Translations under genes and position numbers: made by a program
Notes under the pieces: generated by a model
Told to the model about the DNA's origin: nothing
The model's database searches: none
The model's input: only the letters and a program-made list of their open reading frames with translations
Assembly (NCBI RefSeq): GCF_054482595.1
Contig: NZ_CM137008.1
Reading direction: 5' to 3' (one strand)
Length of the DNA: 64,000 nt
Part shown: piece by piece, positions 9,682 through 13,659 of the stretch
Position numbering within the stretch: position 1 is the first letter of the stretch
How the letters are laid out: every line of letters begins with the position of its first letter

Positions 9682-10679
9682 TGGAGCGTAAAGGAATTAT
9701 CGCCGCAGGCAATATGTTGGTTGACCACGTCCATCAGATTATCCAGTGGCCAGAGCGCGGCTGGCTGGCGGAGATCACCCACAGCGAACGCTCCACCGGC
9801 GGTGCGCCGCTTAACGTCCTGCTGACGCTGGCGAAAATGCGCACCGGGCTGCCGTTACAGGCGGTTGGGCTAATCGGTCAGGACAGCGACGGCGATTACA
9901 TCATGGCGATGCTTGAGCAATATCACGTCAATCGTCAGCATGTGCAGCGCACTACCTTTGCCCCGACGTCGATGTCGCAGGTGATGACAGACCCAAGCGG
10001 GCAGCGGACGTTTTTCCATTCGCCGGGTGCAAACAGACTTTTGGATCTTCCGGCGTTCGATCAGCTCGATAACACCATGAAGATTTTCCATCTCGGCTAT
10101 TTACTGTTGCTCGACAGCCTGGATATGCCGGACGATGTTTACGGCACCCGTAGCGCACGCCTGCTGGCGCAAATGCGTGATACTGGCTTTGAAACCTCAC
10201 TCGACCTGGTCTCCCGTAAGGGCGATCCGCGTTATCAGCCGCTGGTGCTGTCCGCGTTGCGCCATCTGGATTATCTGGTAATTAACGAACTGGAGGCCGG
10301 GGAGTTTAGCGGGCTGGAAATTCGGTTACCCAACGGCGAACCGCATATCGCGCATATTGCTGCCGCCGCGCGTGAACTGTTAGATGCGGGCGTGCGCCAG
10401 CGGGTGGTGATCCACTGCCCGGAAGGGGCGTGGGGAGAGACCCCAGAACAGGGCGGCGTGTGGATCCCTTCGCAAAAGTTAGAACAACGGGAAATTATCG
10501 GCAGCGTCGGCGCGGGCGATGCATTTTGTGCCGGATTTTTATATGGCTGCCATGAACGCTGGACGCTTACCGAGAGCATCAAACTGGCACACGCCTGCGC
10601 GCGGGCAAGCCTGTTATGCGCCAATGCCATCGACGGGGCGAAAACGCTGGAAGAGCTGCAAACAGAAATGTCGGATTAA
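9678..10679 (+). CDS. PfkB/ribokinase-family carbohydrate kinase
   Basis: 333 aa; C-terminal signature GSVGAGDAFCAGF and N-terminal TGGAPLNV; start overlaps the aldolase stop (ATGA). Confidence 0.8.
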   Translation: MMERKGIIAAGNMLVDHVHQIIQWPERGWLAEITHSERSTGGAPLNVLLTLAKMRTGLPLQAVGLIGQDSDGDYIMAMLEQYHVNRQHVQRTTFAPTSMSQVMTDPSGQRTFFHSPGANRLLDLPAFDQLDNTMKIFHLGYLLLLDSLDMPDDVYGTRSARLLAQMRDTGFETSLDLVSRKGDPRYQPLVLSALRHLDYLVINELEAGEFSGLEIRLPNGEPHIAHIAAAARELLDAGVRQRVVIHCPEGAWGETPEQGGVWIPSQKLEQREIIGSVGAGDAFCAGFLYGCHERWTLTESIKLAHACARASLLCANAIDGAKTLEELQTEMSD

Positions 10680-11383
10680 TGCACGTCGGCAGCGAAGACA
10701 TACCCCAGACCGCGCAGAGTTTTAATCAACATCGGCTGATGCGGGTTGAGTTCGATTTTGCGTCGTAAGCGCATGATTAATACGTCGATGGTGCGATCAA
10801 ACACCTCCACGCTGTCGCTGTGGGTGAACGCCAGCAACTGCTCGCGGCTCAATACCCGACGCGCGTTTTGCGCCAGAGCCAGTAACAAGCCATATTCGCC
10901 CTGAGTTAACTCGACATGTTGCTGAAGCGGATTGTGCAACTGGCAGCGCATGGTATCGAGATACCAGCCATTGAATGACAGCCCGGCGCTTTTCTCGTCA
11001 TTAACCGCCAGCGCACCAACCCGTCGCAACACCGCTTTCAGTCGTGCGACCACCACCCGCGGGGTGAACGGTTTGCAGATGTAATCATCCGCGCCCATTT
11101 CCAGCCCGACCACCACATCAGACTCACTGCCCATGCCGGTCAACATCACCACCGGCAATGTCGGACGCAGTTTCTGGATTTGCTGCAATACCCTCAGGCC
11201 GTTGGTATCGGGTAGCATCATATCCAGCACCACCAGCGCAATGTCAGGATCGCCCTCAATACGCAATATGGCCTCCTGTCCGGTATGGCAGACTGAAACC
11301 GTAAAGACATGTTCACTTAACACGTCCTGCAACAGTGCGCAGATAGCCGTGTCATCATCCACCACCAGCACGACGGGTTTCAT
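10676..11383 (-). CDS. OmpR/PhoB-family response regulator (receiver + winged-helix DNA-binding domain)
   Basis: Receiver motifs VLVVDDD and LDMMLPDTNG, winged-helix C-terminus (LRGLGYVF); start at ATG 11383 with GGAG SD (ORF track starts 18 nt upstream); stop codon overlaps the kinase stop. Confidence 0.85.
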   Translation of the reverse strand: MKPVVLVVDDDTAICALLQDVLSEHVFTVSVCHTGQEAILRIEGDPDIALVVLDMMLPDTNGLRVLQQIQKLRPTLPVVMLTGMGSESDVVVGLEMGADDYICKPFTPRVVVARLKAVLRRVGALAVNDEKSAGLSFNGWYLDTMRCQLHNPLQQHVELTQGEYGLLLALAQNARRVLSREQLLAFTHSDSVEVFDRTIDVLIMRLRRKIELNPHQPMLIKTLRGLGYVFAADVH

Positions 11384-11673
11384 GGTTACACTCCGCATCA
11401 TTCATCTGATTAATCATTGTGCGTACTTCTTGTCGAAGTGAAAGCTGAAAGTAATATAAATAATAAAAATATAAGTCAGGTCACATTATTGATGATAGTA
11501 ATAAATATGCCGTACTTTTCCCTCTTCAGCACAAATGCCTAATAAAATGGATCGTTCCGCTCACACTTCCACTTATTAAAGTCGCAATTTCCCAATTATG
11601 ATAACGCCAGCTTTAAATGACGTATTTTGCATGGATTACATATTTACGACATAAATGATAAATGGAGATTTAT

Positions 11674-13659
11674 ATGAATAACTCTCGGTTATTCCGTTTG
11701 AGCAGGATTGTTATTGCGTTAACCGCCGTCAGCGGCATGATGGTAAATACCGCTAACGCGAAAGAGGAAGCGAAAGCCGCCACTCAATATACCCAACAGG
11801 TTAATCAGAATTACGCCAAATCATTACCGTTTAGCGATCGTCAGGATTTTGACGATGCCCAGCGTGGATTTATCGCCCCGCTGCTGGATGAAGGTATTCT
11901 GCGTGATGCGAACGGTAAAGTTTACTACCGCGCAGACGATTACAAATTTGATATTAATGCCGCTGCGCCGGAAACCGTAAACCCCAGCCTGTGGCGTCAG
12001 TCGCAGATCAACGGCATATCTGGCCTGTTCAAAGTCACCGATAAAATGTATCAGGTGCGCGGCCAGGATATCTCTAACATTACGTTCGTTGAGGGCGAGA
12101 AAGGCATTATTGTCATCGACCCGCTGGTGACGCCGCCTGCCGCAAAAGCCGCACTTGACCTTTACTTCCAGCATCGTCCGCAAAAACCGATTGTTGCCGT
12201 TATTTACACTCACAGCCACACTGACCACTATGGTGGCGTGAAAGGTATTATCTCTGAAGCCGATGTTAAATCCGGCAAAGTTCAGGTGATTGCCCCTGCT
12301 GGCTTTATGGACGAAGCCATCAGCGAAAACGTGCTGGCGGGTAACATCATGAGCCGCCGTGCGCTCTACTCTTACGGTCTGTTACTGCCGCACAACGCGC
12401 AAGGCAACGTGGGTAATGGCCTTGGCGTGACGCTGGCAACCGGCGACCCGAGCATTATTGCGCCAACCAAAACTATCGTCAGAACTGGCGAGAAGATGAT
12501 TATCGACGGCCTGGAGTTTGACTTCCTGATGACCCCAGGCAGCGAAGCCCCAGCCGAAATGCACTTCTATATTCCGGCCCTGAAAGCCCTGTGTACCGCC
12601 GAGAACGCCACGCATACCCTGCACAACTTCTACACTCTGCGCGGCGCGAAAACCCGCGATACCAGCAAGTGGACAGAGTACCTGAACGAAACGCTGGATA
12701 TGTGGGGTAACGACGCGGAAGTACTGTTTATGCCGCACACCTGGCCGGTCTGGGGCAATAAGCATATCAATGATTATATTGGTAAATATCGCGATACCAT
12801 CAAGTATATTCACGATCAAACCCTGCATCTGGCGAACCAGGGCTACACCATGAATGAAATCGGCGACATGATTAAGCTGCCGCCTGCGCTTGCCAATAAC
12901 TGGGCCAGCCGCGGTTATTACGGTTCTGTCAGCCACAACGCCCGCGCGGTGTATAACTTCTATCTTGGCTATTACGACGGTAACCCGGCTAACCTGCATC
13001 CGTATGGTCAGGTAGAGATGGGCAAACGTTACGTGAAAGCGCTGGGCGGTTCTGCCCGTGTCATCAACCTGGCGCAAGAAGCGAACAAGCAAGGTGATTA
13101 CCGCTGGTCGGCAGAACTGCTGAAACAGGTGATTGCCGCCAACCCGGGTGACCAGGTCGCGAAGAATCTGCAAGCGAATAACTTTGAACAGCTGGGCTAT
13201 CAGGCCGAGTCCGCCACATGGCGCGGTTTCTACCTGACCGGCGCGAAAGAGCTGCGCGAAGGGGTGCATAAGTTCAGCCACGGCACCACCGGTTCCCCGG
13301 ACACCATTCGCGGAATGTCGGTCGAAATGCTGTTCGACTTTATGTCCGTTCGCCTCGATAGCGAAAAAGCCGCGGGTAAAAATATCAGCCTGAACTTCAA
13401 TATGAGCAACGGCGATAACCTCAACCTGACGCTGAACGATAGCGTGCTTAACTACCGTAAAACGCTGCAATCCCAAGCTGACGCCTCTTTCTACATCAGT
13501 CGTGAAGATCTGCACGCCGTGCTGACCGGACAAGCCAAAATGGCGGATCTGGTAAAAGCGAAGAAAGCCAAAATTATTGGCAATGGTGCGAAACTGGAAG
13601 AAATTATTGCCTGTCTGGATAATTTCGATTTGTGGGTAAATATCGTAACCCCAAATTAA
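11674..13659 (+). CDS. yjcS: Alkyl/aryl sulfatase, metallo-beta-lactamase fold, secreted
   Basis: 661 aa from ATG 11674 (GGAG SD); signal peptide; MBL motif HSHTDHYGG; K-12 synteny next to ytcA-mdtNOP. Confidence 0.85.

What the first reader, a model, noticed from the sequence alone, without database searches (positions are those of the whole stretch)
10676..10679. Tail-to-tail overlap of kinase and response-regulator stop codons
The PfkB kinase stop (TAA 10677-10679) and the regulator stop (complement of 10676-10678) share nucleotides, so the convergent genes have no intergenic space for a terminator. Transcription of the catabolic operon must read into the antisense of the regulator gene and vice versa, a potential built-in negative feedback by transcriptional interference.
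Basis: seen in the sequence. Interest (0 to 1): 0.35.

Follow-up and report, generated by a model that had tools for sequence, protein, structure and literature searches.

The report
Ordinary four-base overlap of gene ends
Two E. coli genes that face each other, a sugar kinase and the regulator RbfR, end on the same four bases (TTAA); this is a common kind of gene junction, made here by a small deletion, and nothing shows that it works as a regulatory device.

Summary
Window 10676-10679 reads TTAA. The PfkB kinase (9678-10679, +) stops at TAA 10677-10679, and the OmpR/TorR-type response regulator (10676-11383, -) stops on the complement of 10676-10678. RefSeq annotates the same 4-nt overlap, and 410 of 5,426 complete E. 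coli genomes carry this junction. The locus is O-island 167; the regulator is the published RbfR (Z5684).

The feature is ordinary. TTAA is one of four tetramers (CTAA, TTAA, CTAG, TTAG) that define the known spike of 4-nt convergent overlaps. E. coli has about 58 convergent overlaps among about 700 convergent pairs. In this window soxS and pdeC are only 2 nt apart.

I compared 71 related loci in other species. The convergent kinase/regulator layout is conserved, but the junction ranges from -22 to +2824 nt and includes REP and hok/sok insertions. The E. coli TTAA is a derived state: a 24-28 nt deletion removed a conserved six-residue regulator tail ending in Ala-Ala.

I found no convincing intrinsic terminator on either strand, so each transcript must end inside the antisense of the other gene. 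Termination by Rho or by polymerase collision is my inference. Feedback by transcriptional interference is coherent but untested, and the comparison argues against selection for it.

The parts
10676..10679 (.). TTAA tetramer that carries both stop codons: kinase TAA at 10677-10679 on the + strand, regulator TAA as the complement of 10676-10678
   Evidence: Read directly from the sequence. ORF list. PGAP annotation shows the same overlap.
9678..10679 (+). PfkB-family carbohydrate kinase (333 aa), the last gene of the sugar operon; by its position in the EDL933 numbering it should be Z5685
   Evidence: PF00294 match covers residues 29-322 of 333, E 2.3e-36. No NCBIfam equivalog reaches its cut-off. 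The C-terminal tail varies among orthologues.
10676..11383 (-). OmpR/TorR-type response regulator (235 aa; an alternative upstream ATG lies at 11401); this is RbfR / Z5684 of O-island 167
   Evidence: Response_reg plus Trans_reg_C matches. Aligns to BaeR up to residue 233 of 235. PGAP protein WP_000805929.1. Phosphotransfer from the kinase and binding to the ler promoter are published (PMC9860305).
4617..10679 (+). Six-gene operon that runs into the regulator gene: ABC ATPase 4617-6137, permease 6134-7108, RbsB-like binding protein 7127-8068, D-lyxose/mannose isomerase 8123-8806, ketose-1,6-bisphosphate aldolase 8821-9681, kinase 9678-10679
   Evidence: Pfam and NCBIfam matches. PGAP annotation. 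Gaps between neighbouring genes run from -4 to +54 nt. That the six genes form one transcript is inferred.
2242..4503 (-). Hybrid sensor histidine kinase (753 aa), RbfS / Z5692, transcribed divergently from the operon
   Evidence: HAMP, HisKA, HATPase_c and Response_reg matches. PGAP annotation. PMC9860305.
4531..4569 (+). Conserved control block TATGACAAATATGAAC-N-GC-N-TCTGACATTTTGCATTTAC. On the reverse strand it reads as two tor-box-like repeats (CCGTTCATAT and TTGTCATAT). They sit next to a -35-like CTGACA.
   Evidence: Nearly invariant in the alignment of 61 related loci while the flanks vary. The tor box consensus is CTGTTCATAT (PMC9239176). Binding by the regulator is inferred.
10940..11150 (+). 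C-rich, G-poor stretch in the RNA downstream of the kinase stop, antisense to the regulator gene; a candidate Rho loading region
   Evidence: C/G ratio 1.4-2.2 in 78-nt windows, against a background 90th percentile of 1.53. Inference only.
10415..10545 (-). C-rich, G-poor stretch in the RNA downstream of the regulator stop, antisense to the kinase gene; a candidate Rho loading region
   Evidence: C/G ratio 1.35-1.75. Inference only.
10500..10544 (+). Terminator-like hairpin followed by a T run, inside the kinase coding sequence about 140 nt before its stop; probably a chance match over the codons of the conserved GAGDAF motif
   Evidence: dG -16 kcal/mol. Folding z-score 0.03 against shuffles.

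Best explanation
This is a routine compact junction between two convergent genes, and I see no sign that it is a dedicated regulatory element. The sugar operon of O-island 167 ends with a PfkB kinase gene. The TorR-like regulator gene rbfR faces it. Both reading frames stop on one palindromic TTAA. That arrangement belongs to the well-known 4-nt class of tail-to-tail overlaps. In the E. coli lineage it arose from a 24-28 nt deletion across an already tight junction. The deletion removed the kinase's previous tail and the regulator's last six codons. It was tolerated because both protein domains remain complete (shown). Because the junction encodes no hairpin terminator, each transcript has to extend into the antisense of the other gene (follows directly from the sequence). 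I infer that transcription is then ended within a few hundred nucleotides. Rho could do this by acting on the untranslated, C-rich RNA. When both promoters fire, head-on polymerase collisions at scattered positions could also do it. Some mutual damping of the two genes is a likely side effect (inferred). The overlap itself was not selected to produce it.
For: The sequence and the annotation agree on the overlap. The class is documented. [quoted passage not shown] E. coli has 58 convergent overlaps, and only 20% of the genes involved have a predicted rho-independent terminator (PMC2174442). There are about 704 convergent pairs in E. coli. A local control exists: soxS and pdeC are 2 nt apart at 40870-40877. 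In 71 related loci with an adjacent convergent regulator, 21 overlap (-4, -13, -19, -22), 14 have 0-5 nt, 10 have 8-40 nt, 12 have 52-184 nt, 11 have 0.5-1.1 kb and 3 have about 2.6-2.8 kb. The 4-nt state occurs at two different alignment positions. In E. coli the regulator is the shortened partner. In the Enterobacter/Lelliottia/Leclercia group the kinase is the shortened partner, with TTAA, TTAG or CTAG. So the 4-nt state arose at least twice. Alignment A1 shows that E. coli lacks 24-28 nt present in Citrobacter and Pseudescherichia. Sixty-four orthologues keep a tail ending in Ala-Ala that E. coli lacks. No convincing terminator hairpin was found, and folding z-scores are about 0. C>G tracts lie downstream on both strands. 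Without a hairpin element, converging polymerases collide at heterogeneous sites (bioRxiv 10.1101/2022.10.23.513370).
Against: No transcript ends were measured, so Rho or collision termination is inference. Half of the related loci keep 5 nt or fewer between the genes, against roughly 8% overlap genome-wide. That could mean the terminator-less layout is favoured rather than merely tolerated, although the loci are phylogenetically related and so not independent. The regulator probably controls the operon that runs into it, which gives a feedback model a plausible logic.
Confidence: 0.75

Rival explanations
1. Selected negative feedback. The regulator activates the operon. Operon transcription then runs antisense through rbfR. 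It lowers regulator output by polymerase collision, by promoter occlusion, or by RNase III cleavage of paired 3' ends. The lack of a terminator is kept by selection for this purpose.
For: There is no intergenic space and no convincing terminator. A conserved tor-box-like block at the operon promoter suggests that the regulator controls the operon. The convergent layout is conserved from Enterobacteriaceae to Tolumonas, and half of the loci have 5 nt or fewer between the genes.
Against: The junction is not conserved. Twelve loci carry spacers of 52-184 nt, most of them REP-like hairpin repeats, which are reported to act as bidirectional terminators or decay blocks. Fourteen loci carry 0.5-2.8 kb insertions; the three tested contain hok/sok. 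The system persists in all of these. The E. coli overlap stems from a deletion. No expression data exist for the operon. The published riboflavin transcriptome text reports induction of rbfR and rbfS and does not mention the operon genes. C-rich tracts make early Rho termination plausible.
Confidence: 0.12
2. Terminators are embedded in the coding sequences. Weak hairpins followed by T runs inside the partner gene (+ strand 10717-10755 followed by TTTTGCG; - strand around 10710-10669 followed by ATTTCTGTTT) give defined 3' ends just past the stops, so antisense overlap is short and harmless.
For: My relaxed scan found these candidates at dG -10 to -12 kcal/mol. In the literature, 23 of 116 E. 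coli genes in convergent overlaps have a predicted rho-independent terminator inside the partner gene.
Against: The stems are AU-rich or have large loops. The stricter scan did not report them, and its total count was within the shuffle expectation (8 found against 4.8 +/- 2.5). Folding energy equals that of shuffled sequence (z 0.46 and 0.14).
Confidence: 0.08
3. Annotation artefact or decaying gene. One of the two reading frames is not a functional gene, or its true end lies elsewhere, so the overlap has no meaning.
For: The E. coli regulator is six residues shorter than 64 orthologues. One goat isolate has the aldolase and kinase as pseudogenes.
Against: Both proteins have complete domains. 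PGAP calls both genes intact in O157:H7 and in XH990. RbfR accepts phosphate from RbfS and binds the ler promoter in published experiments.
Confidence: 0.02

Closest known systems
The 4-nt class of convergent (tail-to-tail) gene overlaps in prokaryotes: CTAA, TTAA, CTAG, TTAG (Lillo & Krakauer 2007, PMC2174442)
   Same: Two opposite-strand genes whose stop codons share one tetramer. The tetramer here is TTAA. Origin by shifting of stop positions fits the stop-codon-mutation model in that paper.
   Different: Nothing differs in kind. Here the origin can be traced to a 24-28 nt deletion rather than a single stop-codon mutation.
The soxS / pdeC junction in the same window (40870-40877)
   Same: A convergent pair with no room for an intergenic terminator: TAA, then tt, then TTA, a 2-nt gap.
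   Different: The stop codons do not share bases. The two genes are not linked in function.
Overlapping bidirectional terminators and collision-driven termination between convergent E. coli genes (Ju et al. 2019; bioRxiv 10.1101/2022.10.23.513370)
   Same: Convergent transcription units whose polymerases must meet. Termination needs neither a classic intrinsic terminator nor Rho.
   Different: Those sites contain a hairpin-encoding element in an intergenic spacer, which fixes the collision point. Here there is no spacer and no such element, so collisions would be scattered.
Transcriptional interference and excludon-type antisense control between convergent units (phage 186 pR/pL, Enterococcus prgQ/prgX, Listeria excludons; from my own knowledge)
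   Same: Convergent promoters with overlapping transcripts. One partner is a regulator.
   Different: In those systems the reciprocal expression has been shown experimentally. Here nothing is measured, the promoters lie about 6 kb and about 0.7 kb from the junction, and the overlap is not conserved among orthologous loci.
The TorS / TorT / TorR system of E. coli
   Same: A hybrid sensor kinase, a periplasmic binding protein of the ribose-binding family and an OmpR-type regulator, with decamer direct repeats like CTGTTCATAT at the target promoter.
   Different: No NCBIfam TorR or TorS equivalog cut-off is reached (163 bits against 275; 137 against 676). The regulated genes are a sugar ABC importer and catabolic enzymes, not TMAO reductase. 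The published signal is riboflavin.

Membership tests
4-nt convergent stop-codon overlap (CTAA/TTAA/CTAG/TTAG) | Two credible protein-coding genes on opposite strands with their 3' ends facing | tested here: met
   Full-length Pfam domains for both genes. PGAP annotation. PDB homologues align to residue 233 of 235 of the regulator.
4-nt convergent stop-codon overlap (CTAA/TTAA/CTAG/TTAG) | The coding sequences, stops included, overlap by exactly 4 nt, and the tetramer is one of the four that give a stop on both strands | tested here: met
   10676-10679 = TTAA.
Bidirectional hairpin terminator between convergent genes | A palindromic, hairpin-encoding element at the junction, usually flanked by an A run and a T run | tested here: not met
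   No such element in the scans. Folding z-scores 0.46 and 0.14.
Bidirectional hairpin terminator between convergent genes | Mapped, overlapping 3' ends of both transcripts at the element | not testable with these tools
   Needs SEnd-seq or Term-seq of a strain that carries O-island 167.
Transcriptional interference / excludon-type control | Transcripts from convergent promoters overlap over a substantial length | tested here: inconclusive
   The sequence forces some overlap because there is no spacer and no terminator. The length is unknown. C>G tracts suggest Rho could end transcription after about 130-500 nt.
Transcriptional interference / excludon-type control | Expression of one partner falls when the other is transcribed, and the effect depends on the cis arrangement | not testable with these tools
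   No strand-specific expression data are accessible. The supplements of PMC9860305 are not held.
OmpR/PhoB-family response regulator (TorR-like) | An N-terminal receiver domain plus a C-terminal winged-helix DNA-binding domain, both complete | tested here: met
   PF00072 covers residues 11-121 and PF00486 covers 161-236 of the 241-aa ORF. NCBIfam OmpR, PhoB and TorR models align end to end but below their equivalog cut-offs.
PfkB carbohydrate kinase | A full-length PfkB fold with the C-terminal GAGD motif | tested here: met
   PF00294 covers residues 29-322 of 333. The translation contains GSVGAGDAFCAGF.

The most novel reading that the evidence does not exclude
The deletion that made the TTAA overlap may matter for the protein more than for transcription. 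It removed a C-terminal tail, ...x-H-x-[D/E/N]-[K/N/R/Q]-Ala-Ala, whose terminal Ala-Ala is invariant in 64 orthologues despite synonymous codon turnover. A terminal Ala-Ala is the critical part of ssrA-like ClpXP degrons in E. coli. If the tail is a degron, the E. coli form of the virulence regulator RbfR has escaped a proteolytic control that its relatives keep. In addition, the terminator-less convergent layout, which is ancestral in the family, could give operon-driven antisense damping of the regulator.
Probability: 0.12. Interest if true: 0.5.

Novelty: already known. Interest (0 to 1): 0.12.

Why it matters
As a genome feature it matters little. Four-base tail-to-tail overlaps occur by the dozen in any E. 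coli genome, and this one is already in the RefSeq annotation. Its modest value is as context for RbfSR, a two-component system reported to raise O157:H7 virulence. The comparison shows three things. The regulator gene sits at the end of, and facing, a sugar operon that it probably controls. E. coli carries a uniquely shortened regulator. The island is widespread in Enterobacteriaceae and occurs in E. coli isolates whose records carry no EHEC serotype label. If read-through or loss of the tail changes RbfR levels, that would affect how the virulence circuit is tuned, but this is untested.

Tried and rejected
1. Intrinsic terminators. The consensus scan of 8000-12000 gave 8 sites against 4.8 +/- 2.5 expected, and none lay just past either stop. 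My relaxed hairpin/T-run scan gave only weak candidates. Folding of 10660-10775 (+), 10580-10700 (-) and 10490-10550 (+) gave z-scores of 0.46, 0.14 and 0.03. I rejected these as evidence for embedded terminators.
2. The published RbfR footprint TCTCACATAATTTATATCATT. It has no match in the window with up to 3 mismatches. The core TCACATWWT has 3 matches against 1.9 expected. It is not informative.
3. Tor-box-like motifs upstream of the regulator gene. None occur within 200 nt in any of 72 loci, so there is no sign of autoregulation through that motif.
4. Literature on Z5685-Z5691. Nothing relevant turned up; the hits were chemical catalogue numbers. The supplements of PMC9860305, with the transcriptome and ChIP tables, are not held.
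5. Locus L074, with an apparent -136 nt overlap. The kinase there matches at only 58-68% identity and is probably disrupted, so I ignored this value.
6. Direction of change at the junction. I considered that E. coli keeps the ancestral state and the others gained sequence. I rejected this because the Ala-Ala tail is present in 64 orthologues across many genera.

Full report
OBSERVATION. Window 10676-10679 reads TTAA. The ORF 9678..10679 on the + strand ends with TAA at 10677-10679. The ORF 10676..11401 on the - strand ends with TAA, read as the complement of 10676-10678. The two stop codons share 10677-10678, so the coding sequences, stops included, overlap by four bases.

BOTH GENES ARE REAL. 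The + strand protein matches PfkB over residues 29-322 of 333 (E 2e-36). The - strand protein has a receiver domain and an OmpR-type winged-helix domain that reaches residue 236 of 241. It aligns to solved regulators such as BaeR up to residue 233 of 235. RefSeq/PGAP annotates the same 4-nt overlap in O157:H7 Rafaela_II and in strain XH990, which is 100% identical to the window over the 2.1-kb query (window 9600-11700). PGAP starts the regulator at 11383.

WHERE THIS IS. The window is an E. coli chromosome segment. An accessory island lies between phnP/yjdP and yjcS. From my own knowledge of the K-12 map, K-12 has the als operon and rpiB at this position. Running along the window, the island contains:
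- a hybrid sensor kinase (2242-4503, - strand);
- a six-gene + strand operon: ABC ATPase, permease, RbsB-like binding protein, D-lyxose/mannose isomerase, ketose-1,6-bisphosphate aldolase and PfkB kinase (4617-10679);
- the convergent regulator.

This is O-island 167. Liu et al. 2022 (PMC9860305) named the kinase RbfS (Z5692) and the regulator RbfR (Z5684). [quoted passage not shown] Of 5,426 complete E. coli genomes, 410 carry the junction, 399 of them at >=99% identity over 121 nt.

IS IT MORE THAN CHANCE? No. It is a member of a documented class. Lillo & Krakauer (PMC2174442) describe a jump at length 4 in the distribution of convergent overlaps. The jump is caused by exactly four tetramers (CTAA, TTAA, CTAG, TTAG) that give a stop on both strands. 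They count 58 convergent overlaps in E. coli. Only 23 of those 116 genes have a predicted rho-independent terminator. Of 1,890 convergent overlaps in 58 genomes, 672 are shorter than 5 nt. A recent preprint counts 704 convergent pairs in E. coli, so roughly 8% overlap. This window supplies its own control. Its first seven convergent pairs have gaps of 143, -4, 302, 153, 2, 98 and 34 nt. The soxS and pdeC stops are separated by only 'tt'.

TERMINATORS. The consensus scan of 8000-12000 found 8 terminator-like sites against 4.8 +/- 2.5 in shuffles, and none lies just beyond either stop. The best hit, a + strand hairpin at 10507-10534 followed by ATTTTTATAT, lies inside the kinase gene over the codons of the conserved GAGDAF motif. 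My relaxed scan added only weak, AU-rich or wide-looped candidates. Folding of the junction on both strands, and of the internal hairpin, is no better than shuffled sequence (z 0.46, 0.14, 0.03). A complete mRNA on either strand must therefore end inside the antisense of the other gene; this follows directly from the sequence. How far it runs is unknown. C-rich, G-poor stretches that could load Rho lie at 10940-11150 on the + strand RNA (C/G up to 2.2) and at 10545-10415 on the - strand RNA (C/G up to 1.75). The background 90th percentile is 1.53. Termination by Rho, or by head-on collision at scattered sites when no hairpin element fixes the meeting point, is my inference.

COMPARATIVE EVIDENCE. 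A scan of one genome per species with the kinase protein returned 79 loci. They span Citrobacter, Enterobacter, Kosakonia, Buttiauxella, Lelliottia, Leclercia, Atlantibacter and others, down to Tolumonas at about 50% identity. In 71 of them an orthologous regulator lies convergent and next to the kinase, so the layout is old. The junction itself is not conserved.

| Junction | Loci |
|---|---|
| Overlap (-4 in 13; -13 in 2; -19 in 2; -22 in 3; one dubious -136) | 21 |
| 0-5 nt | 14 |
| 8-40 nt | 10 |
| 52-184 nt | 12 |
| 0.5-1.1 kb | 11 |
| 2.6-2.8 kb | 3 |

- Most of the 52-184 nt spacers look like REP sequences. One of them, taken from the Citrobacter loci, occurs a median of 28 times per E. 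coli genome in unannotated positions.
- REPs between convergent genes are reported to act as bidirectional terminators or decay blocks.
- Three of the 0.5-1.1 kb spacers were tested and contain hok/sok toxin-antitoxin loci: Rfam sok hits at 73-116 bits and a Hok-like ORF.
- The system therefore persists with the two genes insulated or far apart.

The 4-nt state itself arose at least twice. In twelve loci from Enterobacter, Lelliottia, Leclercia, Silvania and Huaxiibacter the regulator keeps its full tail, and the kinase stop (TAG or TAA) falls on the regulator's stop, giving TTAG, TTAA or CTAG. In E. coli the shared tetramer sits about 20 nt further along the alignment, and the regulator is the shortened partner.

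ORIGIN OF THE E. COLI JUNCTION. Alignment A1 shows that E. coli O157 and a divergent goat isolate lack 24-28 nt that Citrobacter and Pseudescherichia vulneris have between '...ATG' and 'TCG...'. The kinase stop lies in the same alignment columns as in P. vulneris (TAA against TGA). The segment that P. vulneris carries beyond E. coli is 24 nt, which is in frame for the kinase. In P. vulneris the regulator reads through that point to ...ADVVHNEIAA*. In E. coli it ends ...ADVH*. Across 72 non-E. coli orthologues, 64 end in Ala-Ala. All four Ala codons are used at both positions, all three stop codons occur, and the five preceding residues vary. The longer tail is therefore ancestral and under protein-level constraint. 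The E. coli TTAA is a derived product of a deletion. Both domains remain complete, and the truncated regulator works in published experiments.

THE FEEDBACK IDEA. The idea is coherent. The intergenic region between the sensor kinase gene and the operon contains TATGACAAATATGAAC-N-GC-N-TCTGACATTTTGCATTTAC (4531-4569). This block is nearly invariant in 61 related loci while the flanks vary. On the reverse strand it reads CCGTTCATAT (CTGTTCATAT in many relatives) followed by TTGTCATAT. These are tor-box-like direct repeats; the TorR consensus is CTGTTCATAT (PMC9239176). The repeats sit next to a -35-like CTGACA. The TorR-like regulator therefore probably controls the operon that runs into its own gene (inferred). 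However, no expression data are available, and the variety of junctions argues that the overlap is tolerated rather than selected. No tor-like box lies upstream of the regulator gene in any locus. I put the selected-feedback reading at about 0.12. I put the ordinary compact junction, with incidental antisense overlap, at about 0.75.

VERDICT. The kind of feature is known and this instance is already annotated, so interest is low (0.12). The most interesting by-product is that the deletion which made the overlap removed a conserved Ala-Ala terminus from RbfR. A terminal Ala-Ala is the critical part of ssrA-like ClpXP degrons in E. coli, necessary but not sufficient (PMC10862746). Whether the tail is a degron is speculation, at a probability of about 0.1.

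Noticed in passing
window 4531-4569: The block TATGACAAATATGAAC-N-GC-N-TCTGACATTTTGCATTTAC lies between the sensor kinase gene and the ABC operon. It is nearly invariant in 61 related loci while the flanks vary. On the reverse strand it contains tor-box-like direct repeats (CCGTTCATAT / TTGTCATAT; TorR consensus CTGTTCATAT) next to a -35-like CTGACA. It is probably the regulator's native binding site, which would mean that the sugar operon, and not only ler, is its target.
   Followed up: partly
window 10676-10696 (regulator C-terminus); loci L002-L080: Sixty-four of 72 non-E. coli orthologues end ...ADV-x-H-x-[DEN]-[KNRQ]-Ala-Ala. The terminal Ala-Ala is invariant through synonymous codon and stop-codon turnover. 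The E. coli form ends ...ADVH and lacks this tail. A terminal Ala-Ala is the key part of ssrA-like ClpXP degrons, so the tail may be a degron that E. coli RbfR has lost.
   Followed up: partly
window 2242-11383; The island is carried by 410 of 5,426 complete E. coli genomes. Some carriers have no EHEC serotype in their record title, for example XH990 (human urine), S51 (poultry meat), KV7 (pig) and JX21CE8 (chicken). Orthologous clusters occur in about 79 species of Enterobacteriaceae and in Tolumonas. This is broader than the published statement that rbfSR is found only in EHEC and O55:H7 among E. coli. I did not check the pathotypes of these strains.
   Followed up: partly
L039 7130-7446; L077 7161-7330; L080 7145-7301 and 7703-7859: In Cedecea, Buttiauxella and Atlantibacter the kinase/regulator junction holds hok/sok type I toxin-antitoxin loci (Rfam sok hits at 73-116 bits; a Hok-like ORF in L039). 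L080 has two tandem copies. Eight further loci have spacers of similar size that I did not test.
   Followed up: partly
L002, L003, L013, L014 (Citrobacter) junction spacers of 86-154 nt; L005, L011, L058, L061: REP elements sit in the junction; one such sequence occurs a median of 28 times per E. coli genome. In L005 and L011 the kinase stop lies inside a REP-like sequence. In L058 and L061 the regulator's C-terminal residues appear to be encoded by REP-like sequence.
   Followed up: partly
window 40870-40877: The soxS stop (TAA 40870-40872) and the pdeC stop (complement of 40875-40877) are separated by only 2 nt. This is a second convergent pair in the window with no room for a terminator.
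   Followed up: yes
L081 413-1560 (E. coli R32_14_1F, goat): In this divergent E. coli isolate the aldolase and kinase genes are annotated as partial pseudogenes, apparently joined by an internal deletion. The regulator gene and the TTAA junction remain intact.
   Followed up: no
window 10500-10544: A terminator-like hairpin (dG about -16 kcal/mol) followed by TTTTTATAT lies inside the kinase gene over the codons of the catalytic GAGDAF motif. Its folding energy equals that of shuffled sequence, so it is probably a coincidence of coding.
   Followed up: yes
window 11383-11401 and 4503-4680: There are start-site ambiguities. The regulator ORF extends to an ATG at 11401, but PGAP starts it at 11383 (MKPVVLVVDD...). 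The sensor kinase ORF extends to a GTG at 4680, which would overlap the ATPase gene, but PGAP starts it at 4503.
   Followed up: no
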